A stretch of DNA of 64,000 bases from Escherichia coli (GTDB lineage: Bacteria; Pseudomonadota; Gammaproteobacteria; Enterobacterales; Enterobacteriaceae): the NCBI RefSeq assembly GCF_016026235.1, contig NZ_CP065613.1. One strand, given 5' to 3'. Below the pieces are notes generated by a model, which was not told the origin of the DNA, searched no databases, and saw nothing but the letters and a program-made list of their open reading frames with translations. This document shows positions 3,746 through 48,244 of this stretch, in pieces (the stretch's first letter is position 1; each line of letters opens with the position of its first letter). The position numbers and the translations under genes are program-made.

Positions 3746-4000
3746 CTGCTTTTCCTTGATGCTATAGGGGTGCTGAGACCGATAACGCATTTTGTAAACC
3801 ATCCCTGTGAGAGCGAATATTCCGATATCTGGTTATTAATTTATGATTCTTGTTTTATGTGATCGTGGTAGCGTTAATTCCGCTCATATATCATTGTAAA
3901 ATATGGGTTTTATATGAACTATAATGCTTTCGTGATAATACGCTGCGTGTATTAGGCGGAAAAAACTGATCTGGGGGATGTAGAAACTCAAGGAAGTAGC

Positions 4001-4006
4001 TATAAT
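4001..4006 (+). promoter_or_regulatory. candidate -10 hexamer (TATAAT) for selC
   Basis: Perfect TATAAT about 32 nt upstream of the tRNA 5' end; the -35 is weak. Confidence 0.35.
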
Positions 4007-4037
4007 GCGCCCCGCCTCCATGTAGCAATCGAGGCGC

Positions 4038-4132
4038 GGAAGATCGTCGTCTCCGGTGAGGCGGCTGGACTTCAAATCCAGTTGGGGCCGCCAGCGGTCC
4101 CGGGCAGGTTCGACTCCTGTGATCTTCCGCCA
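4038..4132 (+). tRNA. selC: tRNA-Sec (selenocysteine tRNA)
   Basis: 95-nt sequence GGAAGATCG...TTCGACTCCTGTGATCTTCCGCCA with a long variable arm and encoded CCA; recognised as E. coli selC. Confidence 0.95.
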
Positions 4133-4769
4133 AAATGCCTCTTCTGACGTTCTCCAATCCCTTGTAATACTGTCAATCCAGATATTTTCTACTGCTCAAT
4201 ATTCAATCGGCTTCAGGAATACCTGGTCAAAGGTTTTGTGATGGACGATGAGCAGCTGAAGAATCCGCCTGTCGGTTCTTCTGTCCTCGAACGCATCCGC
4301 GATATTCGCGCCAGCATGCGCCGTGTTTATTTGCAGGTGATTTGCCCCCCTGCTGACTCTCAGCCAACTGTATCGCCATTAAGGTGAAGATGTTGTTTTA
4401 CACGCTCCAGAACACCCTTTTTTATACGACTATTCTATTCCTTTAACAGCTGGCGAAAAAAACTGACCTATAAACCTCACCAATAATCAGACTGCCATCA
4501 AGATTAATTTGTTAATTTAATATATCAAATCAACTTGTTTTATTTTTACTATCAAAAATAGCTCATTGCCTTACTATAATTAATATATAAATTCGGTAAT
4601 TAATTCTTAACATGCTTTTGCTAATAATCTCAATTGCTGGCCCTATAATATTGCGCTAGCATTGCTTTCTGGTTGTATCAGCGATACTCAAAAATTCTTA
4701 ATACAATACTCATTCGACTGGTACTTATTTGTAACTCAGTTATATTTTGTCGCTCGGTGATTCAGAAGA

Positions 4770-5954
4770 ATGCAAAAAACGGCTACCACTCCATCAAAAA
4801 TACTTGATCTCACTGCCGCGGCATTTTTACTTGTCGCCTTTCTGACGGGTATTGCGGGCGCTCTTCAGACTCCTACCCTAAGTATATTCCTCGCAGATGA
4901 ACTGAAAGCCCGTCCTATAATGGTAGGTTTTTTCTTCACCGGTAGCGCTATTATGGGAATTCTGGTCAGTCAATTTCTGGCAAGGCACTCCGATAAACAA
5001 GGCGACCGTAAATTACTGATTCTGCTATGTTGCTTATTTGGAGTGCTGGCCTGCACGCTTTTTGCGTGGAATCGCAACTACTTCATTCTGCTCTCAACGG
5101 GCGTACTTCTGAGTAGTTTTGCTTCCACCGCAAACCCGCAAATGTTCGCCCTCGCCCGTGAACACGCCGATAGAACAGGCCGTGAGACGGTCATGTTCAG
5201 TACATTTTTACGTGCTCAGATCTCGCTTGCCTGGGTTATCGGGCCACCGCTCGCTTATGAACTGGCAATGGGATTTAGTTTTAAAGTGATGTATCTCACC
5301 GCTGCCATCGCATTTGTTGTTTGCGGGCTGATAGTCTGGTTGTTTTTGCCATCAATACAAAGAAATATTCCTGTCGTTACCCAACCCGTAGAAATTTTAC
5401 CCTCCATCCATAGAAAGCGAGATACGCGGCTACTTTTTGTGGTTTGTTCAATGATGTGGGCGGCGAATAATCTCTACATGATAAATATGCCGCTATTTAT
5501 TATTGATGAACTGCATCTAACCGATAAACTGGCTGGAGAAATGATTGGTATCGCTGCCGGTCTGGAAATTCCGATGATGTTAATCGCAGGCTATTACATG
5601 AAACGTATTGGCAAGCGACTATTAATGCTCATTGCTATCGTGAGTGGAATGTGTTTTTACGCCAGCGTACTCATGGCGACGACTCCGGCGGTTGAGCTGG
5701 AATTGCAAATTCTTAATGCCATCTTCCTTGGTATTCTCTGTGGTATCGGCATGCTTTATTTTCAGGACTTGATGCCTGAAAAAATAGGCTCTGCGACAAC
5801 GTTATATGCAAATACTTCACGCGTCGGCTGGATTATCGCCGGCTCTGTTGACGGAATTATGGTTGAAATCTGGAGCTACCATGCGTTGTTCTGGCTGGCG
5901 ATAGGGATGTTGGGTATTGCGATGATTTGCCTGCTGTTTATTAAAGATATTTAG
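4770..5954 (+). CDS. setC: sugar efflux transporter C (MFS)
   Basis: 394-aa multi-pass membrane protein; recognised as SetC. Confidence 0.85.
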   Translation: MQKTATTPSKILDLTAAAFLLVAFLTGIAGALQTPTLSIFLADELKARPIMVGFFFTGSAIMGILVSQFLARHSDKQGDRKLLILLCCLFGVLACTLFAWNRNYFILLSTGVLLSSFASTANPQMFALAREHADRTGRETVMFSTFLRAQISLAWVIGPPLAYELAMGFSFKVMYLTAAIAFVVCGLIVWLFLPSIQRNIPVVTQPVEILPSIHRKRDTRLLFVVCSMMWAANNLYMINMPLFIIDELHLTDKLAGEMIGIAAGLEIPMMLIAGYYMKRIGKRLLMLIAIVSGMCFYASVLMATTPAVELELQILNAIFLGILCGIGMLYFQDLMPEKIGSATTLYANTSRVGWIIAGSVDGIMVEIWSYHALFWLAIGMLGIAMICLLFIKDI

Positions 5955-6064
5955 CTCACCAGTCTGGGCTAAGAAAAATCGGCGTGGCGCAAACAGAGCC
6001 ATCCTCGCCATTTTTGCTATCATGCCTGCATACATAAACGACAAAACAGTATGCAGAGGGAAAA

Positions 6065-6988
6065 ATGGGTTCCACCAGAAAGGGGATGCTGAACGTTCTG
6101 ATTGCCGCCGTGTTGTGGGGAAGTTCAGGGGTCTGCGCGCAATACATCATGGAGCAAAGCCAGATGTCGTCGCAGTTTTTGACTATGACGCGTTTGATAT
6201 TCGCCGGTTTGATTCTACTGACGCTGTCATTTGTTCATGGCGATAAAATCTTTTCTATTATTAACAATCATAAAGATGCCATTAGCCTGCTGATTTTTTC
6301 CGTGGTTGGCGCGCTAACTGTACAGCTCACTTTTTTGCTAACCATCGAAAAATCGAACGCAGCCACGGCAACGGTGCTGCAATTCCTCTCACCGACGATT
6401 ATCGTCGCCTGGTTCTCACTGGTGCGTAAATCGCGCCCGGGCATTCTGGTTTTCTGCGCTATTTTGACATCGCTGGTCGGGACTTTTTTATTGGTGACAC
6501 ACGGTAATCCGACGTCATTATCGATCTCTCCTGCCGCGTTGTTCTGGGGCATTGCCTCGGCATTTGCTGCTGCATTCTATACCACCTATCCCTCAACGCT
6601 AATTGCCCGCTATGGCACGTTACCAGTCGTCGGCTGGAGTATGCTGATTGGCGGTCTGATTCTGTTGCCTTTTTATGCCAGACAAGGAACAAACTTTGTC
6701 GTTAACGGCAGTTTGATTCTGGCGTTTTTTTATTTGGTGGTCATTGGTACGTCCCTGACATTTAGTCTGTACCTGAAAGGAGCACAATTAATTGGCGGTC
6801 CAAAAGCCAGCATTTTGAGCTGTGCAGAACCATTAAGTAGCGCGCTACTCTCTTTGCTGTTGCTGGGGATCACGTTCACATTACCGGACTGGCTGGGAAC
6901 GCTGCTGATTCTGTCATCGGTGATTTTGATTTCAATGGATTCCCGTCGCCGCGCCAGAAAAATAAATCGTCCGGCGCGGCATGAGTGA
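6065..6988 (+). CDS. yicL: EamA/DMT-family inner-membrane transporter
   Basis: 307-aa hydrophobic protein; recognised as YicL. Confidence 0.85.
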
Positions 6989-6991
6989 GAA

Positions 6992-7810
6992 TTACCAGCC
7001 AGGCACCGCGCCACCGTTAAAAATGGTTTCTGCCGCTTTAGCGACTTCGGGTGATTGATAAGATTGCAGAAATTCCTTCACGTTTTCTGCATTCTTATTA
7101 TCTTCCCGTGCCACCAAAATATTCACATACGGCGAATTCTTATCTTCAATAAATACGCTGTCGTGCACCGGAGAAAGCCCTGTCTGCTGAATGTAAGTGG
7201 TGCTGATAATCGCTACATCAACTTTGGGATCATCCAGTACGCGCGGAAGCTGCGCCCCCTCGAGTTCCATAATCTGCAAATGACGAGGATTATCGGTTAT
7301 ATCCAGCGCGGTAGGTAATAACCCTTTTCCCTCTTTCAGAGTAATTAGCTTCTCTTTTTGCAACAGTAAAAGTGCGCGACCAAGGTTGGTCGGGTTGTTG
7401 GGGATCGCCACTGTCGCGCCTTCTTTTATTTGCGCCACGGTTGTGATTTTTTTGGAATAACCCGCCATAGGGAAGACAAACGTATTTCCCACCGCTACCA
7501 GTTTATAACCATGCGCCTGATTATCTTGTTCAAGAAAGGGTCGATGCTGGAAGACATTCGCATCAAGTTCGCCATGATTTGTCGCATCGTTCGGTAGCAA
7601 CGAACCGCTAAATCCTACCAGTTCAACATCGAGGCCATATTTCTCTTTTGCCACCTTTTTAGCGACTTCCGCGACATCTTGTTCTGCGCCATTTATAACG
7701 CCAACTTTAATGTGTTTTGCATCGCTGCTACTCTGGTCGCAACCTGCCAGCAGAATTCCGGCCAGCAATAATGCGGCCCCTGTCCGTAGATGATGTGTTG
7801 TCAGTTTCAT
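6992..7810 (-). CDS. nlpA: lipoprotein 28 (NlpA/MetQ family)
   Basis: 272 aa with signal peptide and LAGC lipobox; recognised as NlpA. Confidence 0.9.
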   Translation of the reverse strand: MKLTTHHLRTGAALLLAGILLAGCDQSSSDAKHIKVGVINGAEQDVAEVAKKVAKEKYGLDVELVGFSGSLLPNDATNHGELDANVFQHRPFLEQDNQAHGYKLVAVGNTFVFPMAGYSKKITTVAQIKEGATVAIPNNPTNLGRALLLLQKEKLITLKEGKGLLPTALDITDNPRHLQIMELEGAQLPRVLDDPKVDVAIISTTYIQQTGLSPVHDSVFIEDKNSPYVNILVAREDNKNAENVKEFLQSYQSPEVAKAAETIFNGGAVPGW

Positions 7811-8031
7811 TTTTTTATCCTTTTATTAATGATTACCTGACTATAGCGGTAAGGTCGCTGCGGTTTAAAAAACGAAACGCTATCGATAAGAATAAAAAGG
7901 AATAAAAGTGGAATATAAAGTCTGGCACTTCTTACTGACCACGCAAGCGCGTTTCGTACAGCATGATGAGAGCGATGAAAGCAAACTACACTTATGCTTC
8001 ATTCGATACACATTTGTAAAAGGTTGAATCC

Positions 8032-8325
8032 ATGAAACCAACGACACTACTGCTTATTTTCACTTTTTTCGCTATGCCAGGCATCGTATACGCCGAGTCG
8101 CCTTTTAGCTCACTGCAGTCCGCAAAAGAGAAAACCACGGTATTACAAGATTTACGTAAAATTTGCACGCCACAGGCGTCATTATCAGATGAAGCGTGGG
8201 AAAAGTTAATGTTGTCAGATGAAAACAATAAACAACATATACGCGAGGCCATCGTGGCGATGGAACGTAATAATCAGAGCAATTATTGGGAAGCGTTGGG
8301 TAAGGTAGAATGCCCGGATATGTAA
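8032..8325 (+). CDS. yicS: small secreted protein of unknown function
   Basis: 97 aa with N-terminal signal peptide; position and size match YicS. Confidence 0.7.
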   Translation: MKPTTLLLIFTFFAMPGIVYAESPFSSLQSAKEKTTVLQDLRKICTPQASLSDEAWEKLMLSDENNKQHIREAIVAMERNNQSNYWEALGKVECPDM

Positions 8326-8365
8326 GAACAGCAACAACTACTGACCAACGCTTCTTTACCTGATA

Positions 8366-9556
8366 TCAGGATTTCTTCATTTTCACCTTTGCAGTAACCA
8401 ACAATGCAGTCAGCAACATCAATGTGCCGGACAACATCAACGGCGAAGTCAGACCAATATTATCCAGCGCATAACCGCCGATTGCCGCACCACAGGTATT
8501 AGCAAGCTGAATAACCGCCACCTGAATAGACCCGGCTTTTTCTGCCTGATCGGCCAGCGAGCGGGTGATCCACGTTGACCAGCCGACGGGAACCAATGCA
8601 AAAGTTAGCCCCCAGATAATCGCCACGCCGGTAGCAACGATTTTATCGCTTCCCCACAACGTCAGTACCAACGCACTCACAGCCAGTATTAACGGCGCGC
8701 CTGCTAAGGCCAGTTTTACCGAACGTTTAAGAATGAACGACGAAAGCGACGTACCAATAAAGCTGGCGATACCAAAACTCAACAGCACCAGCGTTAAGCC
8801 ATCCACGCCGAATCCCGCCAGGTTCATATACACCGGGCGAATATACGTGAAGAAAGCAAACTGCCCGGCGAAAGACATGAAGATGGCGATCATCCCTGCC
8901 ATCACACCCGGACGTTGTAATAAGCGGAAAGTATTTTGTTTCTGATGCGAGGGTTCGCCTGGCAGCGAAGGCAATGATTTGATAATCCAGAAAATACACA
9001 ACACGCCCATCACCGCCGCCGCATTAAAGACATTGCGCCAACCGATAAGCTCGCCTAAAAAACTGCCCAACGGCGCGGCAATCACCAGCGCAATAGAAAC
9101 CGCGCCGAAGATCACCGACAGCGCCTTCGGCACCGTACGCGGCGGTACCAGACGCATGGTCAGCGACGCCGACATCGCCCAGAACCCGCCCAGCGCCAGC
9201 CCCAGACAGGCACGACCGATTAAAAGCAAACTGAATGAGTTAGCAAAGGAAACCAGCAAACAGGAGAGCGTCAGCAAAACGGCAAATAAAATAACAACGT
9301 AGCGGCGGTCAGTAGCCTGAATTGTCTGGGTAATAAACAAACTGGCAAACATTGCCACAAAGGCGGTCACGGTCACCGATTGCCCGGCAACCCCTTCCGA
9401 AATGCCTAAATCCTGGGCCATTGGCGTCAACAAACTGACGGGCAAAAACTCAACGATAATCAGACAGGCGACGCAAAACGCCACCGAGAAAACGGCTGAC
9501 CAGTTCGGTCGGGTGATGGCATCCGCGCCGCGGTTTTCGGCAATAAATTCACTCAT
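8366..9556 (-). CDS. nepI: purine ribonucleoside efflux pump (MFS)
   Basis: Track ORF is 438 aa; trimmed to [15 protein letters not shown]... giving 396 aa, the length I recall for NepI. Confidence 0.85.
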
Positions 9557-9783
9557 GGTGTTACCCGTGGCATGTTTCAGGGGAAAAGCCGACCACTTTA
9601 ACATTGAAATGTGTGACGCATTTAACGTTTTTGCAACTTTTACGGTGTTGTGGGAAAAGTTCGAGGCTGCTCGAAGAAACAAAAATCATAGGGCAAGCTG
9701 ATATGCATTTTCGCGATTGGGTTGGGAATAAGGGATAAAGTATTGCACTTGGTGATATACTTTAATAACAGGACCTCAACGAT

Positions 9784-10143
9784 ATGCGCGTGTTTAAAAC
9801 CAAATGGTTTGCAAGGGAAGCCAGGTCTCATGCAATAACAGATGAAGAGTTGTGCCGGGCCATTTTAGAAACGGAGCAAGGTAAAGCTGATGCACTTGGT
9901 GGTGGCGTTTTTAAAAAGCGCCTTCACCAAAATCGTGAGCGTGCAATTATTCTGGCAAAAGGGGGAAGCAATTGGTTTTACACGTTTTTATATGCAAAAC
10001 AGGATATGTCGAACATCAATAGTCAGGAACTGGCTGGGTTTCGTGAACTTGCAAAGCATTATGCCTTCCTGACGAAAGCCCAGCTAACAGCAATGATTAA
10101 CACTAAAGAACTGACAGAGATCTGCTATGACTGCAAAAACTAA
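9784..10143 (+). CDS. putative type II toxin, RelE/ParE superfamily (HigB-2-like)
   Basis: 119-aa basic protein; overlaps the downstream HTH gene by 17 nt (ATGACTGCAAAAACTAA). Family assignment is from architecture and recalled resemblance, not a search. Confidence 0.55.
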   Translation: MRVFKTKWFAREARSHAITDEELCRAILETEQGKADALGGGVFKKRLHQNRERAIILAKGGSNWFYTFLYAKQDMSNINSQELAGFRELAKHYAFLTKAQLTAMINTKELTEICYDCKN

Positions 10144-10450
10144 ATTTAAAAGTCCTGCATTTGAGGCTATTCACAGCGCAGCGGCTGGATTGTCCAGCGT
10201 CGATGCTATTTCTGCCGAAACAATGCGTACTTTTGACAAAGCCTGCCTGACCAGCGTGCAAGACTTACAACCTGTTGAGATAAAAGCACTGCGGGAAAAA
10301 TTAAAAGTGAGTCAGCCCGTCTTCGCTCACTATCTCAATACCAGCGTTTCAACTGTACAAAAATGGGAAAGTGGCGCTAAACGCCCCAATGGCATTTCAT
10401 TAAAACTGCTCAGCATTGTGCAAAAACACGGGCTGGATGTGCTGCTGTAA
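10127..10450 (+). CDS. putative antitoxin, helix-turn-helix (Xre-like) DNA-binding protein
   Basis: 107 aa with a C-terminal HTH-like segment (...SQPVFAHYLNTSVSTVQKWESGAKRP...); translationally coupled to the upstream toxin-like gene. Confidence 0.55.
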   Translation: MTAKTKFKSPAFEAIHSAAAGLSSVDAISAETMRTFDKACLTSVQDLQPVEIKALREKLKVSQPVFAHYLNTSVSTVQKWESGAKRPNGISLKLLSIVQKHGLDVLL

Positions 10451-10491
10451 ATAGAACGTAGATAATGCGTCACCTACTGTCAGTTCCGATA

Positions 10492-10562
10492 CCGGATGCG
10501 GCGTGAACGTCTTATCCACCCACCAGCTCAGGCGCGGTCTGTAGGCTGATAAGACGAAGCGG
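10492..10562. repeat. pair of REP-like palindromic units (BIME-like)
   Basis: CCGGATGCGGCGTGAACGTCTTATCC and GTAGGCTGATAAGACGAAGCGG in opposite orientation; resemble E. coli REP consensus. Confidence 0.5.
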
Positions 10563-10564
10563 TT

Positions 10565-11017
10565 TTAATGCAGCCAGTGAACGCCCTCGGCAGGCTGAAA
10601 GAATGCGTTATAGCGCATCTGAAAAGCATTAATATCCTGCATTTCAGGTTCAGTTTCGCGCAGAAAACCCAGCGCCAGCCTGACCTGAGCATCGGTAATC
10701 GGCGCGGCAAGGCGGGCTTTTTGTAAAATCCGATGCCATTGCAGCAGGTTCTGTTCGCTACCATCGACAATGACAATTTGCCAGATGAGCAACACCTGCG
10801 CGGCGTTTTGCAGGTGCGACTCATCCGGACGATGCAAATAACGTAAAAATTCGTCACCAGCTGACTTTCCCATTTGATCGACCATCGACTCCACGGGTAC
10901 GACATCGATATTCAGCCGATCGCTGAGACGGCGAATCGCTTTTCTGGCCCCGGATGTCAGCACCCGAAAACCAACCACAAACACTACCGCCAGCGTGGCG
11001 AGCATTATCCAGATCAT
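10565..11017 (-). CDS. yicN: DUF1198-type membrane protein
   Basis: Track ORF is 185 aa; trimmed to MIWIMLATLAVVFVV... (150 aa). Start choice is uncertain. Confidence 0.7.
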   Translation of the reverse strand: MIWIMLATLAVVFVVGFRVLTSGARKAIRRLSDRLNIDVVPVESMVDQMGKSAGDEFLRYLHRPDESHLQNAAQVLLIWQIVIVDGSEQNLLQWHRILQKARLAAPITDAQVRLALGFLRETEPEMQDINAFQMRYNAFFQPAEGVHWLH

Positions 11018-11069
11018 GAGTTCTCCTGCGTAATCAAAACTCATGATATCTGGAAACCCTCGCCAGTTA

Positions 11070-12298
11070 CTAATCCACCAGAATAATCTTGAGTGCAAAC
11101 AGAGCTGCGACCACCACCACACACAGGTTCAGATCGCGCCAGCGCCCGGTGCACACTTTCATGATGCAGTACGACATAAAGCCGAGTGCAATCCCTTCGG
11201 TGATCGAGAAAGTAAAGGGCATCATCACCGTGGTAATAAACGCAGGCACCGATTCGGTAAAATCATCCCAGTTAACGCGCGCCAGGCTCGAAGTCATCAG
11301 CACGCCAACAAAGATTAACGCTCCAGCGGTTGCGTAAGGAGGAACCATCGCCACCAGCGGTGAGAAGAACATAACCAACAGGAACATAACGCCAACCACA
11401 ACCGCAGTCAGCCCCGTGCGGCCACCCACTGCCACGCCAGAAGTACTTTCAATATAGGCGGTAACAGACGAGGTGCCGATAAACGCACCCGCCACCGAAC
11501 TCACGCTATCAACATACAGCGCCTTATTCATATTGGGGAATTTACCGTTACTATCTATTAAGCCAGCTTTATCAGTCACACCAATTAATGTTCCTGATGA
11601 ATCAAATAGGTTGATCAGCATAAAGGAGAAAATGATACCGGCGAGTTCAAGTGTTAACGCGCCGCTCAAATCCACTTCACCAATGACGCCGCTAATATCA
11701 GGCGGAATGGAATAGACACCGCTAAAATGAACATCACCGAAAAATAATCCACAGCAAGACGTCACCACAATAGAAACCAGCACCGCGGCATGAAAATGAC
11801 GTGATGACAACACGGTTATAATAAAAAACCCTAAAATACCTAACAACACGCCGTGAGAACTTAAATCGCCAATCATCACCAGAGTGTCTTTATTGGCGAC
11901 AATAACGCCAGTATTTTTTAATCCCATTAAGGCGATAAATAATCCAATTCCGCTGGTGATACCAATACGTAAACTTAATGGAATGTTGGAGATCATCCAG
12001 TACCGGATACGAAACAGCGTGAGCAAAAATAGTCCAATTGCACCCCAGAATATTGCGCCCATCCCGGTCTGCCATGAGATCCCCATCGCCCCCACGACCA
12101 CGAAGGCAAAGAAGGCGTTCAGCCCCATTGCCGGAGCCAGCGCCACAGGTAAGTTAGCAAATATCCCCATCGCAATGCTGCCGATACCGGCAATCAAACA
12201 GGTGGTAACAAACACCACTTTCGGGTCCATTTGTGCCGCGCCGAGAATTTGCGGGTTCACAAAAACGATGTACACCATGGTTAAAAAAGTGGTCATCC
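11070..12298 (-). pseudogene. adeQ: adenine permease AdeQ, 3' portion (codons ~37-444), separated from its 5' end by an IS insertion
   Basis: 408-aa ORF beginning MTTFLTMVYIVFVNPQ...; the N-terminus (MNNDNTDYV...ELIAGMTT) lies on the far side of the IS. Confidence 0.8.
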
Positions 12299-13593
12299 CC
12301 TGAGGGATCCCCAGAAAATTTAGTAAACCATTATCATATTGGTATACCGTTGCTGTAGAACTTTCAGCCCTGCGTCAAGTGACAGTGTGTTTAGTATGAG
12401 TGGAGAATGTCGAATCACATTCTCCGCCAGTTTTAATAACGAGATGACTCGCCTGTGCTTCACTGTATTTGCCTGATATTTATGATGTATCCCTTTGTTT
12501 TCCAGGCTGAAACCGCTTAACCACATAATGATACTGGCTAATGTTGCGATCAGACTCAATACCGTGACCCGCCCGGATGAATGACTGGCACCAAACCGTA
12601 GTCCAAATCCCCAGCGAGGATTTTTTCATCCCTGAAATTTTGCTCAATTTGCATTCTACGGCTGTATAATTTCATTACCTGTTTTGGCGAGAACTCAGTA
12701 CTGTTTGTGAAAATAAACCATGGTGATTTCCCGGCAGTACGAGCTTTAGCCGTCACCGATGGTCTGGTTGCTCTTTCCTTCGAGCGTTTAAATCTACGAC
12801 CTTTAGACTTACTTTTATAAAGATAAAAATGCCCTTCATGTTGTGCATTTTTATCTCGACCCAGCAGGCCTTCATCTAAATAAATTGCTGTCGTTGATGC
12901 TTTTGTGCCTGAGTCCGACACCTTTTCCCAGCCATTACCAACATTGTAATAATGATTGCCCAGTACCCGGCAAATATAGGTCCAGCCACGGGAGCGGAGC
13001 TGTTGGAACCATCGCCCCTGAAAACCGGCATCTGTAATAACAATGACATCAGTCCCGGGGGAAAAGCACTCAGCAAGCGATTCCAGAAAACGCTCATGTA
13101 CATCTGCATTCGCTGTCTGTGATGATGGAACGACACAACTCATCAACGGTAAAGAACGCCCGTCACATGCCAGGCTTGCCCGCAAAAGCTGAAAACGAGA
13201 GGCATGATAAGCACTCCAGTCAATGAGTATCACAACACGAGACATTCCCCGCGTAATCTTTTGGGTAATTCGCTGAAAAATGGTGGAAACCTCATTTTGC
13301 AAATGTCGATTCCCCAACAGTCGATCCACCCGCTTTATTTTGTTTTTAACTGATGCCGTACCGGTTAAATGACGCCCGATACTGGTAAGTGTGAGGGAAG
13401 CGCCATTTATTACAGCATTAGTTGCGTCAATCAGTGATTTTTGACGGTAAAGATGCAAAGGGGCCAGTATGTTGTTAAGGAAATTTTGGCATAATGAACG
13501 TGCAGGCATAGTGGTGATCTCCTTGAAATTGTTAGCACAATCAATTAGATCACATCTCACTATGCCTGTCTTGTTTTCTGGGGATTCCTCAGT
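12299..13593 (-). mobile_element. IS4-family, IS10-like insertion sequence (~1.29 kb) inserted in adeQ
   Basis: Terminal inverted repeats CTGAGGGATCCCC (left) and GGGGATTCCTCAG (right) resemble IS10 ends; flanked by direct repeat TGGTCATCC at 12290-12298 and 13593-13601. Boundary is ambiguous by 1 nt. Confidence 0.8.
12320..13509 (-). pseudogene. IS10-like DDE transposase, frameshifted
   Basis: Translation from MPARSL... shares blocks with IS10 transposase (NKIKRVDRLLGNRHL, DAGF, YLYKSKSKGRRF, YSRRMQIEQNFRD). Reading frame changes near 12619-12626 at an A6 run; the C-terminal ~80 codons continue in the adjacent frame. Confidence 0.75.
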
Positions 13594-13707
13594 GGTCATC
13601 CCCGCAATCAATTCTGTGCGGACGGTGGTCCCATGCTGAGGTAGTTTAAATAATCGCGAAAGCGTCCCTGATTCATTACTCACGTAATCGGTATTGTCAT
13701 TATTCAT
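13593..13707 (-). pseudogene. adeQ: adeQ 5' fragment (first ~39 codons) plus native promoter side
   Basis: MNNDNTDYVSNESGTLSRLFKLPQHGTTVRTELIAGMTT runs directly into the IS end; the duplicated target repeats the GMTT coding bases. Confidence 0.75.
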
Positions 13708-13881
13708 TTTTTTGTCCATTGGAGGAGATTTAATCCCTTGCTTTTGTAAAACAAATGACAACAACGGTTCAGTGATAATTATCACATTTCAATTGCACAT
13801 TAATGGATATTCTTTAATAATCTCGCGACGTTTCTTTATGATAAATAATAATCAAATTGATAAAATCAAAATGAGAAAAAT

Positions 13882-15648
13882 ATGAATAATTCTATTAACC
13901 ATAAATTTCATCACATTAGCCGGGCTGAATACCAGGAATTGTTAGCCGTTTCCCGTGGCGACGCTGTTGCCGATTATATTATTGATAATGTCTCTATTCT
14001 CGACCTGATCAATGGCGGAGAAATTTCCGGCCCAATTGTGATTAAAGGACGTTACATTGCCGGTGTTGGCGCAGAATACACTGATGCTCCGGCTTTGCAG
14101 CGGATTGATGCCCGCGGCGCAACGGCGGTGCCAGGGTTTATTGATGCTCACCTGCATATTGAATCCAGCATGATGACGCCGGTCACCTTTGAAACCGCTA
14201 CCCTGCCGCGTGGCCTGACGACCGTTATTTGCGACCCTCATGAAATCGTCAACGTGATGGGCGAAGCCGGATTCGCCTGGTTTGCCCGCTGTGCCGAACA
14301 GGCAAGGCAAAACCAGTACTTACAGGTCAGCTCTTGCGTACCCGCCCTGGAAGGCTGCGATGTTAACGGTGCCAGTTTTACCCTTGAACAGATGCTCGCC
14401 TGGCGGGACCATCCGCAGGTTACCGGCCTTGCAGAAATGATGGACTACCCTGGCGTAATTAGCGGGCAGAATGCGCTGCTCGATAAACTGGATGCATTTC
14501 GCTACCTGACGCTGGACGGTCACTGTCCGGGTTTGGGTGGCAAAGAACTTAACGCCTATATTGCTGCGGGTATTGAAAACTGCCACGAAAGTTATCAGCT
14601 GGAAGAAGGACGGCGGAAATTACAACTCGGCATGTCGTTGATGATCCGCGAAGGGTCCGCTGCCCGCAATCTCAACGCACTGGCACCGTTGATCAACGAA
14701 TTTAACAGCCCGCAATGCATGCTCTGTACCGATGACCGTAACCCGTGGGAAATCGCTCATGAAGGGCATATCGATGCCTTAATTCGCCGCCTGATCGAAC
14801 AACACAATGTGCCGCTGCATGTGGCATATCGCGTCGCCAGCTGGTCGACGGCGCGCCACTTTGGTCTGAATCACCTGGGCTTACTGGCACCCGGTAAGCA
14901 GGCTGATATCGTCCTGTTGAGCGATGCGCGTAAGGTCACGGTGCAGCAGGTACTGGTGAAAGGCGAACCGATTGACGCACAAACCTTACAGGCGGAAGAG
15001 TCGGCGAGACTGGCGCAGTCTGCCCCGCCATTTGGCAATACCATTGCCCGCCAGCCAGTTTCCGCCAGCGACTTTGCCCTGCAATTCATGCCCGGAAAAC
15101 GCTATCGGGTCATTGACGTCATCCATAACGAATTGATTACGCACTCCCGCTCCAGCGTCTATAGCGAAAATGGTTTTGATCGCGATGATGTGTGCTTTAT
15201 TGCCGTACTTGAGCGTTACGGGCAACGGCTGGCTCCGGCCTGTGGTTTGCTCGGCGGCTTTGGCCTGAATGAAGGTGCGCTGGCTGCGACGGTCAGCCAT
15301 GACAGCCATAATATTGTGGTGATCGGTCGCAGTGCGGAAGAGATGGCGCTGGCGGTCAATCAGGTGATTCAGGATGGCGGCGGGCTGTGCGTGGTACGTA
15401 ACGGCCAGGTACAAAGTCATCTACCGTTGCCCATTGCCGGGCTGATGAGCACCGACACGGCGCAGTCGCTGGCCGAGCAAATTGACGCCTTGAAAGCCGC
15501 CGCCCGTGAATGCGGTCCGTTACCCGATGAGCCGTTTATTCAGATGGCGTTTCTTTCTCTGCCAGTGATCCCCGAGCTAAAACTAACCAGTCAGGGGCTA
15601 TTTGATGGCGAGAAGTTTGCCTTCACCACGCTAGAAGTCACGGAATAA
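13882..15648 (+). CDS. adeD: adenine deaminase
   Basis: 588 aa; recognised as E. coli Ade. Confidence 0.9.
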
Positions 15649-15678
15649 AAAAAGCCCGGCGTCATGCCGGGCAAAAGT
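15646..15678. terminator. bidirectional intrinsic terminator between convergent adeD and uhpT
   Basis: Hairpin GCCCGGCGTCATGCCGGGC flanked by an A-run and AAAAG. Confidence 0.6.
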
Positions 15679-15690
15679 CACCAGTTACGT

Positions 15691-17082
15691 TTATGCCACT
15701 GTCAACTGCTGAATTTTTTTCTCGCGGCGGATTTTGCGTTCTTCCATCACCGCCACTATCGCCATCAGGCAGATACAACCAATCGCGGCGATATCCAGCG
15801 CGGCGAAGGTGCCTGCCCAGCCGGTAAGGCCGAATACCGGCGTCCCATCGGCAATCATTCCCAGACCTAACTTGGCAAAGCTGTCACCAATCAGGTAAGC
15901 AAAGGTGCCTTTAATACCATCGGCAGCGCCAATCGCTTTTTTAGGTACAAAGCCAACAGCAGCCACACCAATCAACAATTGCGGGCCAAAGACCAGGAAA
16001 CCCAACGCAAAGAGAGAAGCCAGATAGATATATTGATTGCTGGCATGTTGATACACACCGAGCGTGGCGATAATCAGCGCCAGCGCGATGCAGGCCACCA
16101 GGCCACGGCGACCGTTCGCCAGATCAGAGAGCCAGCCCCACAGCAGCGTACCGACCAGCGCACCGGCTTCAAACAGCGTAAAGCCCTGAATCGCCACCGC
16201 TTTAGAGAGTTTCAGTTCCTGGAACGCGTACACGGTTGACCACTGGTCGATACCAATACGCACCACATAGAGGAAAATGTTGGCGAAGCACAGCAGCCAG
16301 ATCACTTTGTTTTTCAGCACATACTCAACAAAGATCTGCCACTTGGTCATATCGGTAGATTCAGTCTCTTTGTCCTCTTCGCTGATCTCCTCGCCGAACA
16401 GCTCTTCAGCTTTGCCGAGGCCATAAGATTCCGGGGAGTCGCTGCCGTAACGCAGGCCGATAAAACCAACAATCAGCGCGATAATCGACGGGAAGATAAA
16501 CATGCCGATGACATGGCCATCGAACAGGTAATTTGCACCGAACAGCGCCACACCTGCTGCGCCTGCACCGCCAAGGTTGTGAGAAATATTCCAGAAACCG
16601 AGGAATGTCCCGCGTTTACGACGCGGCGTCCATTTGGTGATGGTGGAGTAACTGCACGAACCGCCGGTACTCTGGAAAAAGCCGCTTAAGGCGTAGAAGG
16701 CAATCATCAGGAACAGGCTAACCGAGCCGCTGCCCATACTGGCACTGAAGCCCAGCATACAAATGGCAGACAGGATAAGCATAAACGGCAGGAATTGTTT
16801 GGTGTTTTTGCCGTCGGCGTAGTAGGAAACCAGCGTTTTACCCACGCCATAAGTGATGGAGAAACCCAGGCCGATCATCCCCAGCTGCGTCATGCTCAAC
16901 CCGTAGGTCGAAATCATGTCGTTCTGCGCGATGTTAAAGTTCTTGCGAATCAGGTACATCGTCAGGTAGCCGATAAAGACCACCAGGTAGGATTGCATGA
17001 ACGGTTTGAACCACATTTTGCGCCGCACTTCGAGCGGAAGGTCCAGGGTCGGCTTGCGAACCTGGTTTAGGAAAGCCAGCAT
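15691..17082 (-). CDS. uhpT: hexose-6-phosphate:phosphate antiporter (MFS)
   Basis: 463 aa; recognised as UhpT. Confidence 0.95.
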
Positions 17083-17161
17083 GGGTTACTCCTGAAATGA
17101 ATACCTGCGTGAGGCATGCATTGTAAAAATCAGCAGCAAATCAGGCCTGAGATAGCGTCCA

Positions 17162-17224
17162 GGCAAAACCTGGAAAATTTCTTAGTTTTGCCGGATATGA
17201 AGTGAAAAGGTGAGATGCATCACG
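17162..17224 (-). promoter_or_regulatory. uhpT promoter region: UhpA-type inverted repeat plus CRP-like site
   Basis: GGCAAAAC-N15-GTTTTGCC at 17162-17192; GTGA-N6-TCAC at 17209-17224 overlapping the uhpC stop. Confidence 0.5.
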
Positions 17225-18539
17225 CTTCGCGCGGTGTCTGGGCGTTCAAAAAGGGCAGTAACAGCAGTGCGGAAACCCCGGCGGCGATAGAGATAACCAC
17301 AAAAAATCCGCTCCAGTGCCAGGTATCGAGTACTTTCGCCAGCGGCCAACCAGCAAGCGACGCCCCCAGATAAGCAAACAAGCCGACAAACCCCGTCGCC
17401 GCCCCTGCCGCCTCTTTGTGGGAACACTCTGCCGCCGCCATGCCGATTAACATCTGCGGGCCAAAGACAAAAAAACCAATGGTGAAGAAGCAGGTTGCCT
17501 GCATCACGTAGCTGGCAAATGGCATCAGCCACAGCGAGCCGACTGAAAGCAAAATTCCGGCGGCGAAAATCAAATTCATCGGCCCACGGTTGCCGTTAAA
17601 CAATTTGTCCGAGCCCCAACCCGCTACCAGCGCACCGATAAATCCACCCAGTTCAAACATCGTCACTGCCGTATTCGCCGTGACCAGATCGACGCCCAGC
17701 GTCTCGGACATATACAAATTGCCCCAGTCGTTGATCGCCGCCCGGACCACATAGACCAGCACATAGCAAAACGAAAGCAGCCAGATATACGGATTCAGCA
17801 ACACATATTTGGTGAGGATCTCTTTACGCGTCAGCCCTGCCCCTTCTTGTTGTTGAGCAATCTCCAGCGCGTCGTGCCGCCATTCACCGACCGCCGGTAA
17901 ACCTAACGCCTGCGGGCGATCGCGCAGCCGCCAGCAGAGAAAAATCCCCACGACGATCGCCATACAACCAGCAATCATCATCCCGGCACGCCAGCCGTAA
18001 TGTAGTGCAGCCGCTGCCATCACAATGGGAATGAGTGCGCCGCCGACGTTATGCGCCGTGTTCCATAATGCCCACCAACCGCCGCGCTCGGTACGAGAAT
18101 ACCAAGCGGTTAACAGACGCGCACACACCGGTGAACCCCAGCCCTGGAAAAAGGCGTTCAGCACCCAGAGCACGGCAAACGCCCATAGCGACGTCGAGAA
18201 GCCAAACAGAATGTTGATGATGCCCGTGGCAATAAGCCCTATCCCCATAAAATAACGGGCATTTGAACGATCGCTGACAATGCCGGAGACAAACTTCGAC
18301 ACGCCGTAAGTAATGTAAAACAGGGTCGCTAACAGGCCGATATCGCTACGGCTGAGCACGCCGTTAGCAAGGATTTCTGGTACGGCGGCGTTAAAACTTT
18401 TACGCGTGAAGTAAAACAGCGCGTAACCCAGCCAGATGGTCAGCAGAATATGCCGACGCCAGTAGCGATAACGGGCATCAATTTCATGTTTATCAGTCAT
18501 TAATGGCGCATCGGCAGGCGCTTTCAGAAACGGCAACAT
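17220..18539 (-). CDS. uhpC: membrane sensor of external glucose-6-phosphate (UhpT paralogue)
   Basis: 439/440 aa; recognised as UhpC. Start is one of two adjacent Met codons. Confidence 0.9.
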   Translation of the reverse strand: MLPFLKAPADAPLMTDKHEIDARYRYWRRHILLTIWLGYALFYFTRKSFNAAVPEILANGVLSRSDIGLLATLFYITYGVSKFVSGIVSDRSNARYFMGIGLIATGIINILFGFSTSLWAFAVLWVLNAFFQGWGSPVCARLLTAWYSRTERGGWWALWNTAHNVGGALIPIVMAAAALHYGWRAGMMIAGCMAIVVGIFLCWRLRDRPQALGLPAVGEWRHDALEIAQQQEGAGLTRKEILTKYVLLNPYIWLLSFCYVLVYVVRAAINDWGNLYMSETLGVDLVTANTAVTMFELGGFIGALVAGWGSDKLFNGNRGPMNLIFAAGILLSVGSLWLMPFASYVMQATCFFTIGFFVFGPQMLIGMAAAECSHKEAAGAATGFVGLFAYLGASLAGWPLAKVLDTWHWSGFFVVISIAAGVSALLLLPFLNAQTPREA

Positions 18540-18548
18540 CATCGAACC

Positions 18549-20051
18549 TTAGACATAACGTTGAGGTAGAGAAACGCTGACACGCGTGCCGTGCAGACAG
18601 GAAATGTGTAATGTGCCGCCCAGCGCCGTTACGCGCTCGCGCATTCCGGTGAGGCCAAAACCTTGTTGCCCGAAACCCGGCGGCAAACCGCTGCCATCGT
18701 CTTCAATCACCAGCATCAACCGTTCATCCTGCTGCCAGCCTTGCAGCGTGACCGCGCTGGCATCAGCATGTTTCACAATGTTGTTCAGCCCTTCCTGGCA
18801 GACACGAAACAGCGTCACGCGCTGGTTTTCACTTAATGCTGATTCATCGATTCGCCATTCGAGATGGCTGACAATGCCGCGCCCTTCCAGCTCCATTTCC
18901 CGCATCAGTGAGCGGATGGCCTGCTCCAGGGTGAGATCATCCAACTGGCGCGGACGTAACCGTCCTAATAAACGGCGCACCGCGTCGTAAACGCCCAGCG
19001 ACAGTTGTTCGATGAGCTGTCCGCTCTGCTTCACACTGGCGTTATCTGCCGCCAGTCGCTGAACAATGCCCGCCTGAGTACGAATAGCAGTGATGGTCTG
19101 ACCGATATCATCATGCAGCTCACGCGCCACATCACGACGCACGCTCTCTTCGGTTTCCAGCAACCGTTCAGCCAGATGCTGATTGCGCGCCAGTTCCTTT
19201 TGCAGCGACTGGTTAAGTTCACGCAACCGCTGGATGCCAGCGCCCAGTAACAACCCTGTCAGACTTTGCACCAGCAACGAGAGCAATAAATCCACCGGAT
19301 GATCGCGCCAGGTTTGACTGGCGATCAGCGCGATGGCGTTCATCAACGTCGCGATCAGCGCCCCTTGCCAACCGTAGTGCCAGGCCAGCGCGATAATCGG
19401 CAGCGCCAGGCAGAATGGCGTAAAGCGCGACAGTTCGTCCGGCAATCCCAACTGGAGCCAGAGACTAATAACAAACAACAGCAAGTACCAGACCAGATGC
19501 CGCCCGCGCCAGTTGATCGGTTGAGAAACCAGTGACGGGCCGAGCGGCAGCCAGGTGTTATTGGCGAGATAGTGCCAGAACACCAGACATATCGGGGCCA
19601 GCGTCAGGCCGCCAGTTAAAGTCAGCAACAGCGCATTCCACGACTCTTTGCCGTGCCAAAGCCAGGGCAGCGACTGCAACAACGCCGCCGCCGTTAACGC
19701 CGTCCCCTGTAACAGCAAGGTGCGCCAGTCACGCTGATGGCGATAGCGCGAGATCAGCGCTACGGGCAGTAACGTCAGTAAACTACCGATCATCAATAAC
19801 GGAAAATGGGTTAAACCGACCGCCTGCGTTAGCCAGTAAATCAGCAGCCATTCCGCACCCAGCAATACGGGCCAGTATCCGCGCGGGCATTGCAGCATTA
19901 GCCCTAGCCGCAGACCAAACGGAAATAACAGCACCGCCATATCAGGGCGCTCAACCAGGTGCAGGCTGATACTCCACAGGCAAAACCATGCGGCAGAGAA
20001 GATAAAAAAGCAGGCAATAACGGTAATTAAGCGGGAGAACAACGTCTTCAT
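18549..20051 (-). CDS. uhpB: sensor histidine kinase
   Basis: 500 aa with N-terminal membrane domain and C-terminal HisKA_3/HATPase region; stop/start overlap ATGA with uhpA. Confidence 0.9.
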
Positions 20052-20641
20052 CACCAGCCATCAAACATGCGGCGCGCCAGTTCTACGTCGTTACTGACGC
20101 CCAGTTTTTCCATCAGATTGGCGCGATGGACGTGTACCGTTTTCGGTGACAAGCCCAGTTCGGCGGCAATCTCTTTCACCGCCATTCCTTGCGCCAGTTT
20201 TTCCGCCACCTGGCGTTCACGTTTGGTTAGCGGGTCCTGACGACCGGATGCCAGTTTAATGGCAATATCCGCCGTCAGATAACAGCCGCCCGTGGCAACC
20301 GTATGCACCGCAGCAATGAGTTCATCCGGGCTACAGCGTTTGGAAAGAAAGCCACGTGCCCCCGCGTTAAGCGCCTGCTCAACCAGCGCAGGACTGTCGT
20401 GAACGGAGAGCATAATCGTCGCCATACCTTTCGGCAGCTGGCTTAGCAGCTCCAGACCGGAGATATCGGGCATGGAGATATCGCAAATACACACCTGCAC
20501 ACCGCGCCCCGGCAGCCCCGCCAGCGCCTCGCGCCCCGAACCAAACTCGGCAACTACCTGCAAATCAGGTTCCAGCCCCAGCAGCTGCGCAAAGCCGGAG
20601 CGGACGATGAGGTGATCGTCTATAAGGGCAACGGTGATCAT
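20051..20641 (-). CDS. uhpA: response regulator (NarL/FixJ family)
   Basis: Trimmed to [10 protein letters not shown]... (196 aa); receiver domain plus LuxR-type HTH. Confidence 0.9.
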
Positions 20642-23029: not shown

Positions 23030-23170
23030 ACAAAAAACCCCGCCGGAGCGAGGTTTCGTCAGCCGCCTGCGGCTGGTAACCGCAAAGCACACTGTATTAT
23101 GTCAACACTGAAAGTATACCTGTTCCGCGCAGAACGCGCAATTTCGGCACGAATTTTGACGTATTTAGTA
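23030..23170 (-). ncRNA. istR: IstR antitoxin sRNA region (IstR-1/IstR-2); 5' ends approximate
   Basis: Minus-strand hairpin plus U6 terminator near 23032-23053; contains a ~21-nt block (23087-23110) repeated upstream of tisB; sits divergent from a LexA-boxed promoter. Confidence 0.5.
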
Positions 23171-37569: not shown

Positions 37570-37983
37570 TTAGTTGATTTCGATACGGCGCGGTTTTTTC
37601 GCTTCCGGAATCACGCGTTCGAGATCGATATACAGCAAACCATTTACCAGGTTAGCGCCACGAACATGAATGTTCTCAGCTAACTGGAATTTGCGTTCAA
37701 AGTTGCGTTCAGCGATGCCCTGGTACAGATAGGTGCGCTCTTTTTGTTCGTCGGCGTGAGCACCTTTCACCACCAGAAGATTATCCTGGGCGGTAATTTC
37801 CAGTTCGCTCTCAGCAAAACCAGCCACAGCGATAGCAATGCGGTAATGGTTTTCGTCTACCAGTTCAACGTTATACGGAGGATAGCCGCCATTACTCTGG
37901 CTCTGGTTGTTTTCTAAGTGGTTAAACAAACGGTCAAATCCAATAGCAGAACGGTAAAGCGGGGATAAATCAAAGTTACGCAT
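37570..37983 (-). CDS. ibpA: small heat-shock protein IbpA
   Basis: 137 aa from [20 protein letters not shown]... Confidence 0.9.
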
Positions 37984-38078
37984 AATCAATAGCTCCTGAA
38001 ATCAGCGAGAATGTAAGACCTTCCACAATGGACAGGTCAGGTAGCCAGAACACCCATCAGGCGCGTCCTCATCGGCTA
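37984..38078 (-). promoter_or_regulatory. ibpA 5' UTR (~100 nt), reported site of a ROSE-like RNA thermometer
   Basis: Long leader between the sigma-32 promoter and the start codon with the SD inside a predicted stem; the fold was not computed. Confidence 0.45.
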
Positions 38079-48146: not shown

Positions 48147-48244
48147 GCCGGATGCGGCGTGAACGCCTTATCCGGCCTACAAAAACATGCAAATTCAATA
48201 TATTGCAGGAGTCTCGTAGGCCTGATAAGCGTAGCGCAACAGGC
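48147..48244. repeat. two REP elements in inverted orientation (BIME)
   Basis: GCCGGATGCGGCGTGAACGCCTTATCCGGCCTAC and GTAGGCCTGATAAGCGTAGCGCAACAGGC. Confidence 0.65.

What the first reader, a model, noticed from the sequence alone, without database searches (positions are those of the whole stretch)
17083..17224. uhpT control region: long perfect inverted repeat and CRP-like site overlapping the uhpC stop
GGCAAAAC-N15-GTTTTGCC (17162-17192) is an 8-bp perfect inverted repeat at the expected position for UhpA binding upstream of uhpT. A TGTGA/TCACA-like CRP motif (GGTGAGATGCATCACG) overlaps the last codons of uhpC. Regulatory DNA embedded in the end of the sensor gene is a compact arrangement.
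Basis: partly seen in the sequence, partly recalled or inferred. Interest (0 to 1): 0.25.

Follow-up and report, generated by a model that had tools for sequence, protein, structure and literature searches.

The report
Known E. coli uhpT promoter control region
This stretch is the well-studied control region of the E. coli sugar-phosphate transporter gene uhpT, with its UhpA activator site and CRP site exactly as in strain K-12, so the finding is correct but ordinary.

Summary
GGCAAAAC-N15-GTTTTGCC lies at 17162-17192 and GGTGAGATGCATCACG at 17209-17224. Both sit in the 137-bp gap between uhpC and uhpT, which are on the minus strand. The gap is 100% identical to E. coli K-12.

This is the classical uhpT promoter. 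It has a -10 TACAAT and no -35. UhpA binds from about -80 to -32. A CRP site 39.5 bp upstream of the repeat's dyad matches the published -64 and -103.5 positions.

Comparison of 80 Enterobacterales uhpT loci adds three points:
- Spacing from CRP site to UhpA region to -10 is fixed in about 99% of loci.
- The uhpC stop codon is the TGA inside the CRP half-site GTGA in 72 of 77 loci.
- The perfect 8-bp arms occur in only 6 of 80 loci. The 15-nt "spacer" is more conserved than the arms.

The conserved units are four hexamers fitting CYNRGA, 11 bp apart and alternating in orientation. They span both the strong and the weak UhpA regions.

On sequence alone neither motif is striking. An 8-bp inverted repeat arises by chance in about 5% of such regions, and the CRP core match is at chance frequency. 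Position, conservation and published binding data make them real.

Novelty: already known. Interest is low.

The parts
17206..17227 (-). CRP (CAP) site, 22-mer AAGCGTGATGCATCTCACCTTT. The core is GTGA-N6-TCAC with its dyad at 17216.5, about -103.5. The left half-site contains the uhpC stop codon.
   Evidence: Sequence. It matches 8 of 10 core positions of TGTGA-N6-TCACA. Across 73 distinct promoters the half-sites are conserved (GTGA 1.97 bits, TCAC 1.75 bits) while the N6 spacer varies (0.91 bits). Published CRP binding at about -103 (PMC5352689).
17220..17222 (-). uhpC stop codon TGA, embedded in the CRP half-site GTGA.
   Evidence: ORF 17220-18542 on the minus strand. It is the NCBIfam UhpC family, E 7.6e-261. 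The same TGA-in-GTGA arrangement is found in 72 of 77 Enterobacterales loci.
17162..17192 (-). UhpA strong-binding region, about -79 to -49. It contains hexamers H1 CTAAGA (17185-17180) and H2 TCCAGG (17174-17169).
   Evidence: for the repeat. for conservation: the interior carries 1.74 bits per position against 1.54 and 1.37 for the arms. H1 fits CYNRGA in 72 of 73 distinct promoters and H2 in 68 of 73. Literature: the strong upstream UhpA site.
17145..17163 (-). UhpA weak-binding region, about -50 to -32, overlapping the position of the missing -35. It contains hexamers H3 CCTGGA (17163-17158) and H4 TCTCAG (17152-17147).
   Evidence: Mean conservation 1.65 bits. H3 fits CYNRGA in 66 of 73 and H4 in 69 of 73. 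CYNRGA-N5-TCYNRG occurs only twice in the 64-kb window, and both copies are in this promoter. Literature: the downstream weak UhpA site.
17120..17125 (-). -10 hexamer TACAAT, preceded by a conserved T-run.
   Evidence: Mean conservation 1.93 bits. Its distance from the UhpA core is fixed in 76 of 77 loci. No sigma-70 promoter with an acceptable -35 is found by the consensus scan, as expected for an activator-dependent promoter.
17113..17113 (-). Inferred transcription start (+1).
   Evidence: This is an inference. It lies 7 nt downstream of TACAAT, and it is the only choice that places the two dyads at -64 and -103.5, the positions I recall from Merkel et al. 1992/1995. It is not measured here.
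17089..17093 (-). Shine-Dalgarno sequence AGGAG of uhpT.
   Evidence: Sequence. Conserved in the alignment.
15691..17082 (-). uhpT, the hexose-6-phosphate:phosphate antiporter and the regulated gene.
   Evidence: NCBIfam equivalog NF007107, E 1.4e-250. RefSeq annotation of matching genomes.
17220..18542 (-). uhpC, the glucose-6-phosphate receptor. Its 3' end carries part of the CRP site.
   Evidence: NCBIfam NF008661, E 7.6e-261.
18549..20051 (-). uhpB, the sensor histidine kinase.
   Evidence: NCBIfam NF008649, E 6.7e-270. Gene limits taken by analogy with K-12.
20051..20641 (-). uhpA, the NarL/FixJ-family response regulator that binds the repeat region.
   Evidence: NCBIfam equivalog NF007685, E 3.2e-132.

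Best explanation
This is the E. coli uhpT promoter (uhpTp), read on the minus strand.

Shown here:
- It lies between uhpC and uhpT of an intact uhpABCT cluster.
- It is base-for-base identical to K-12.
- It has a conserved -10 TACAAT and no -35.
- It carries a block from about -80 to -32 that is conserved across Enterobacterales, and a conserved GTGA-N6-TCAC element 39.5 bp upstream of the repeat's dyad.

Taken from the literature:
- External glucose-6-phosphate is sensed by UhpC and UhpB, which phosphorylate UhpA.
- Phospho-UhpA binds a strong upstream region and then a weak downstream region next to RNA polymerase. It is indispensable for transcription.
- CRP-cAMP, bound at about -103.5, is a helper that raises activity but cannot act alone.

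Inferred here:
- UhpA units recognise four hexamers fitting CYNRGA at -72..-67, -61..-56, -50..-45 and -39..-34. These are 11 bp apart and alternate in orientation, which suggests two dimers on one face of the helix.
- Because the CRP left half-site is GTGA, the uhpC stop codon is held as TGA.
For: - Gene identities.
- The window is E. coli: 5416 of 5426 complete genomes match.
- 100% identity to K-12 across the gap.
- The repeat sits at the stated coordinates.
- The dyads are 39.5 bp apart, matching the recalled -64 and -103.5.
- Literature summaries.
- Phylogenetic footprint over 80 loci. Spacing from the CRP site to the UhpA core is fixed in 75 of 76 loci and from the core to the -10 in 76 of 77, while the distance from the -10 to the ATG ranges from 38 to 121.
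- Conservation is high at the CRP half-sites, at -80..-32 and at the -10. It is low between them.
- The hexamers fit CYNRGA in 66-72 of 73 distinct promoters.
- Aeromonas carries a perfect GAACTAGGAA-N3-TTCCTAGTTC at the same distance from its -10.
- The 83-bp CRP+UhpA block is 100% identical in 5094 of 5416 E. coli genomes, although the surrounding 1.1 kb is at least 99% identical in only 1860.
Against: - No binding or transcription was measured here.
- The primary Kadner-laboratory papers could not be opened. The exact figures -64, -103.5, -80/-50/-32 therefore rest on my memory plus secondary sources.
- The transcription start is inferred, not observed.
- The CRP-like core is no more frequent than chance, and an 8-bp inverted repeat is only about a 5% event.
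- The CYNRGA register was chosen after seeing the data. A register shifted by 1 nt (CCTGRR-like) fits almost as well.
Confidence: 0.95

Rival explanations
1. The inverted repeat acts at the RNA level, as a hairpin that terminates or stabilises the uhpABC transcript just after the uhpC stop.
For: The minus-strand RNA of 17140-17215 folds into this hairpin at -17.7 kcal/mol, z = -2.65 against shuffles. The hairpin begins 28 nt after the uhpC stop.
Against: - No U-run follows the stem on the minus strand. The terminator scan reports nothing there; its only hit in the repeat region is a + strand hit that reflects the H2/H3 palindrome.
- Pairing is not conserved. Only 6 of 80 loci keep 8 of 8 pairs. 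The pair 17189/17165 is an A-C mismatch in 54 of 80 loci.
- The would-be loop is more conserved than the stem, the opposite of what a hairpin predicts.
- No Rfam family matches here.
Confidence: 0.03
2. The CRP-like motif is a chance match, conserved only because it overlaps the end of the uhpC coding sequence.
For: Matches to the core with up to 2 mismatches occur at chance frequency in the window. The left half-site overlaps the last codon and the stop of uhpC.
Against: - The right half-site TCAC and its T-rich flank lie outside the coding sequence yet are conserved (1.75 bits). The N6 between the halves is variable.
- The distance to the UhpA core is fixed in 75 of 76 loci.
- The stop codon is TGA in every one of the 72 loci with this arrangement.
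- CRP-cAMP binding and stimulation at uhpT are published.
Confidence: 0.03
3. The repeat is the operator of a different regulator, for example FNR, which affects uhpT expression anaerobically, rather than of UhpA.
For: FNR shifts a uhpT promoter fragment weakly in gel assays, and an fnr deletion lowers expression moderately (PMC5352689).
Against: The same paper found no FNR footprint and no FNR-like consensus at uhpT. The repeat bears no resemblance to TTGAT-N4-ATCAA. The cognate regulator gene uhpA is in the same cluster, and the published UhpA sites cover this DNA.
Confidence: 0.02

Closest known systems
E. coli K-12 uhpT promoter (uhpTp), characterised by the Kadner laboratory (Merkel 1992/1995; Dahl 1997; Olekhnovich 1999/2002; Chen 2000)
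   Same: Identical sequence across the whole uhpC-uhpT gap. Same gene order uhpABCT. Same inverted repeat, CRP site and -10.
   Different: Nothing in the promoter itself. The window comes from another E. coli strain, 99.9% identical to FDAARGOS_943 over 1.1 kb.
NarL/FixJ-family response-regulator operators, for example NarL heptamer pairs
   Same: A LuxR-type helix-turn-helix response regulator binds short half-sites in inverted orientation. Several sites are filled cooperatively upstream of a promoter that lacks a -35.
   Different: The half-site sequence here (CYNRGA-like, 5-bp gaps, 11-bp phasing) is not the NarL TACYYMT heptamer in its 7-2-7 arrangement. The register here is inferred from conservation only.
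CRP acting as a distal co-activator beyond -90 together with a regulon-specific activator (the mode described in PMC5352689, citing Zhou 1994)
   Same: The CRP site is centred at about -103.5, too far upstream to activate alone. It requires UhpA bound between it and RNA polymerase.
   Different: The site overlaps the stop codon of the upstream gene. That overlap is conserved across Enterobacterales, but it is incidental to how CRP acts.

Membership tests
E. coli uhpT promoter (uhpTp) | Lies between uhpC and uhpT in a uhpABCT cluster | tested here: met
   ORFs; NCBIfam equivalogs for UhpT, UhpC, UhpB and UhpA; RefSeq annotation of matching genomes.
E. coli uhpT promoter (uhpTp) | Sequence identity with the experimentally studied K-12 promoter | tested here: met
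   200 of 201 aligned bases are identical. The only difference is inside the uhpT coding sequence.
E. coli uhpT promoter (uhpTp) | Inverted repeat centred at -64 and CAP site centred at -103.5 (positions recalled from Merkel et al.; 'centered at -103' in PMC5352689) | tested here: met
   The dyads at 17177 and 17216.5 are 39.5 bp apart. With +1 at 17113, 7 nt after TACAAT, they fall at -64 and -103.5. The +1 is inferred.
E. coli uhpT promoter (uhpTp) | Protection by phospho-UhpA and by CRP-cAMP, and UhpA-dependent transcription | not testable with these tools
   Reported in the literature. It applies here because the sequence is identical.
CRP binding site | Two-fold symmetric TGTGA-N6-TCACA core | tested here: met
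   cGTGA-N6-TCACc matches 8 of 10 core positions and 15 of 22 of the extended consensus.
CRP binding site | Match stronger than expected by chance | tested here: not met
   23 matches with up to 2 mismatches in the window against 24.9 expected. The sequence match alone does not establish the site.
CRP binding site | Half-sites conserved, spacer free, and fixed phasing to the promoter in orthologous loci | tested here: met
   1.97 and 1.75 bits for the half-sites against 0.91 bits for the spacer. Distance to the UhpA core is fixed in 75 of 76 loci.
NarL/FixJ-type response-regulator operator | Cognate LuxR-type response-regulator gene present, and a dyad-symmetric site upstream of the target promoter | tested here: met
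   uhpA equivalog; 31-bp near-palindrome and a second dyad.
   The inner parts AAAAC and GTT(T) are conserved. The outer bases are not: 8 of 8 complementarity in only 6 of 80 loci, with a median of 6 of 8. The interior hexamers are better conserved.
Rho-independent terminator of uhpC | GC-rich stem followed by a U-run on the transcribed strand | tested here: not met
   No minus-strand terminator-like site at the repeat. The sequence after the stem is UGGACGCUAUC.
Rho-independent terminator of uhpC | Base pairing maintained in relatives | tested here: not met
   The pair 17189/17165 is complementary in only 15 of 80 loci. Only 6 of 80 loci keep all 8 pairs.

The most novel reading that the evidence does not exclude
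The comparative footprint may refine the UhpA recognition model. It suggests four CYNRGA hexamers in strict 11-bp phasing and alternating orientation, spanning both the strong and the weak regions. On this reading the textbook 'perfect inverted repeat' is an Escherichia-specific embellishment. A CRP half-site would also have held the uhpC stop codon as TGA throughout Enterobacterales. Much of this could already be in Olekhnovich & Kadner 2002, which I could not read.
Probability: 0.15. Interest if true: 0.2.

Novelty: already known. Interest (0 to 1): 0.08.

Why it matters
uhpT is the glucose-6-phosphate-inducible entry route for fosfomycin, and its promoter is a classic example of a response regulator and CRP activating together. 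Recognising it here only confirms that the first-stage reader can find real regulatory DNA. It adds nothing new about E. coli. The comparative data are a modest by-product. They show which bases of the UhpA region are under selection, and that a stop codon can be fixed by an overlapping regulatory site.

Tried and rejected
- I tried to open the primary papers (Olekhnovich & Kadner 2002; Chen & Kadner 2000; Merkel 1992 and 1995; Olekhnovich & Kadner 1999) by DOI and PMC id. None is held. A search for 'uhpT' with '103.5' found nothing. Exact published coordinates therefore rest on memory and on secondary sources.
- The consensus sigma-70 scan found no promoter in 16900-17500. I read this as the known lack of a -35, not as absence of a promoter.
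- Rfam found no RNA family in the region.
- The RNA hairpin/terminator reading was rejected: no U-run, pairing not conserved, and the loop more conserved than the stem.
- A half-site register shifted by one base (CCTGRR-like, 6-bp gaps) was considered. It fits the weak site well (GCCTG...CAGGC). It fits less well with the G-to-A change at 17146 in divergent Escherichia and with the symmetric flanks of the strong site. The choice remains open.
- I looked for an FNR-like site and saw none, in agreement with PMC5352689.

Full report
**Observation.** GGCAAAAC occupies 17162-17169 and GTTTTGCC 17185-17192, with 15 nt between them. GGTGAGATGCATCACG occupies 17209-17224. The repeat finder extends the repeat to a 31-bp near-palindrome, 17162-17176 / 17178-17192, with 12 of 15 positions complementary. 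It also reports a second, overlapping dyad, 17147-17163 / 17169-17185.

**Context.** All relevant genes are on the minus strand: uhpT 15691-17082, uhpC 17220-18542, uhpB 18549-20051 and uhpA 20051-20641. Each matches its NCBIfam UhpT, UhpC, UhpB or UhpA model, with E-values from 1e-132 to 1e-270. The window is E. coli chromosome: 5416 of 5426 complete genomes carry the segment. The uhpC-uhpT gap (17083-17219) and its flanks are identical to K-12 MG1655, apart from one synonymous-looking change inside uhpT. Whatever has been shown experimentally for the K-12 promoter therefore applies to this DNA.

**Chance.** The specific pattern occurs once and in none of 100 shuffles. The appropriate null is any perfect 8-bp inverted repeat with a 3-30 nt spacer. 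That gives 0.058 expected per 142 bp, and 4.8% of simulated regions have one. The CRP core with up to two mismatches occurs 23 times in the window against 24.9 expected. Neither motif is compelling on sequence alone.

**Anatomy on the coding (minus) strand.**
- TACAAT lies at 17125-17120 and is preceded by a T-run.
- No acceptable -35 exists. The consensus scan finds no sigma-70 promoter in 16900-17500.
- Taking +1 as 17113, 7 nt after the hexamer, puts the repeat's dyad (17177) at -64 and the CRP-like dyad (17216.5) at -103.5.
- These are the positions I recall from Merkel et al. 1992 and 1995.
- The 39.5-bp separation of the two dyads does not depend on the choice of +1.
- Held secondary sources agree. 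CRP-cAMP binds an inverted repeat centred at -103, upstream of the UhpA site, and UhpA is essential (PMC5352689).
- They also state that UhpA binds an upstream strong and a downstream weak region, and that CRP binds a single site upstream of them (PMC4790336).
- The uhpC stop codon TGA (17222-17220) is the TGA of the CRP left half-site cGTGA. Eight bases of the 22-bp site (17227-17206) lie within uhpC, counting its stop codon.

**Related sequences.** One scan of species-representative genomes with UhpT returned 80 loci. They include Escherichia, Salmonella, Citrobacter, Klebsiella, Raoultella, Kluyvera, Enterobacter, Lelliottia, Leclercia, Buttiauxella, Cedecea, Pantoea, Rouxiella and Brenneria, plus one Aeromonas. 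I aligned 218 nt upstream of each ATG.
- **Spacing.** The distance from the CRP half-site to the UhpA core is identical in 75 of 76 loci. The distance from the core to the -10 is identical in 76 of 77. The distance from the -10 to the ATG ranges from 38 to 121 nt.
- **Stop codon.** It is the TGA inside GTGA in 72 of 77 loci.
- **Conservation profile** in bits per position over 73 distinct promoters.

| Element | Bits per position |
|---|---|
| CRP half-site GTGA | 1.97 |
| CRP half-site TCAC | 1.75 |
| CRP N6 spacer | 0.91 |
| Linker, -92..-81 | 0.87 |
| The 15-nt 'spacer' | 1.74 |
| -48..-32 | 1.65 |
| -31..-13 | 1.03 |
| TACAAT | 1.93 |

- **Arm complementarity.** All 8 positions are complementary in only 6 of 80 loci (the window, four other Escherichia loci and S. 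enterica arizonae). The median is 6 of 8. The pair 17189/17165 is A-C in 54 loci.
- **Within E. coli.** The 83-bp CRP+UhpA block is 100% identical in 5094 of 5416 genomes. The surrounding 1.1 kb is at least 99% identical in only 1860.

**What is conserved inside the UhpA region.** Four hexamers fit C-Y-N-R-G-A:
- CTAAGA at 17185-17180, forward.
- TCCAGG at 17174-17169, reverse.
- CCTGGA at 17163-17158, forward.
- TCTCAG at 17152-17147, reverse.

Each is separated from the next by 5 bp, giving 11-bp phasing. They fit in 72, 68, 66 and 69 of 73 distinct promoters. The pair pattern CYNRGA-N5-TCYNRG occurs only twice in the 64-kb window, and both copies are here (0.47 expected). The first pair sits in the region I recall as the strong site (-80 to -50). 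The second sits in the weak site (-50 to -32).

The most distant relative, Aeromonas, carries a perfect GAACTAGGAA-N3-TTCCTAGTTC at the same 64-nt distance from its -10. In Brenneria the two half-site variants are exchanged. I therefore infer that the hexamers plus their A/T-rich inner flanks are the recognition units. The register was chosen after seeing the data, and one shifted by a single base fits nearly as well.

**Mechanism.** From the literature: UhpC and UhpB sense external glucose-6-phosphate and phosphorylate UhpA. Phospho-UhpA fills the strong and then the weak region and is required for transcription. CRP-cAMP at about -103.5 stimulates but cannot act alone. Inferred here: two UhpA dimers sit on one helical face, because of the 11-bp phasing. 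The weak site replaces the -35. The strict spacing tolerates no insertions or deletions, in line with the invariant distances across genera. The title of Chen & Kadner 2000 indicates this was tested, but I could not read the paper.

**Rivals.**
- **RNA hairpin or terminator for uhpABC.** It is predicted at -17.7 kcal/mol with z = -2.65. It has no U-run, its pairing is not conserved, and its 'loop' is more conserved than its stem. No Rfam family matches.
- **Chance CRP motif conserved only through coding constraint.** This is countered by the conserved non-coding right half-site, the free spacer, the fixed phasing and the published binding data.
- **FNR.** It has no footprint and no consensus here.

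**Verdict.** The comparative results are small refinements whose novelty I cannot judge without the 2002 paper. They are the lineage-restricted perfection of the repeat, the four phased hexamers, and the stop codon held as TGA by the CRP half-site.

Noticed in passing
window 12301-13591 (flanks 12289-12300 and 13592-13603): An IS4-family insertion sequence of about 1291 bp interrupts adeQ on the minus strand. It has a 12-bp target duplication GTGGTCATCCCC and terminal inverted repeats TGAGGRATCCCCAGAAAA. The transposase frame appears split into a 344-aa part (NF033591, E 8e-78) and a 79-aa C-terminal ORF at 12320-12559. Only 14 of 5426 E. coli genomes cover at least 80% of 4000-13900.
   Followed up: partly
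window 9784-10143 and 10127-10450: A RelE/ParE-family toxin gene and a helix-turn-helix partner gene lie between nepI and yicN, named from the annotation of the matching strain HD12481. K-12 appears to have only about 260 bp at this position, judging from its gene coordinates, which I recall.
   Followed up: no
L083 about 260-383 (E. coli RIVM_C037794); L002/L003 about 2400-2490; L041 and L043 about 2390-2495: Some strains and species carry an insertion in the uhpT 5' untranslated region that starts right after the -10 hexamer. It runs roughly 65 nt in two Escherichia species (E. sp. E1V33, E. whittamii), about 75 nt in Raoultella terrigena and Enterobacter sp. 10-1, and longer in E. coli RIVM_C037794. 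It resembles an ERIC/IRU repeat (AAGTTGCAGGAA...CTGAAGTATGA), a resemblance recalled from memory and not tested. It is absent from the window. It would change the transcript start and leader of uhpT.
   Followed up: partly
window about 15645-15910, minus strand: This corresponds to uhpU, the sRNA derived from the uhpT 3' end and annotated in K-12. Its evolution was described recently (PMC12704781).
   Followed up: no
window 23032-23161 (-), 37977-38049 (-), 53700-53780 (+), 4038-4128 (+), 48181-48223 (+): Rfam matches above gathering score: istR, a ROSE_2 thermometer, AsdA (antisense of dnaA), tRNA-Sec (selC) and ES036. All are expected for this part of the E. coli chromosome.
   Followed up: no
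L080 2370-2400 (Aeromonas sp. RU39B): This uhpT homologue has a perfect 10-bp-arm palindrome GAACTAGGAA-N3-TTCCTAGTTC 64 nt upstream of its -10, but no GTGA-N6-TCAC at the enterobacterial CRP position. The UhpA-type site seems older than the CRP site.
   Followed up: partly
window 17126-17134, minus strand: The stretch GCTGATTTTT immediately upstream of the -10 (-21..-13) is nearly invariant across genera, although the -35 region is not. It may be a contact or a bend that I did not investigate.
   Followed up: no
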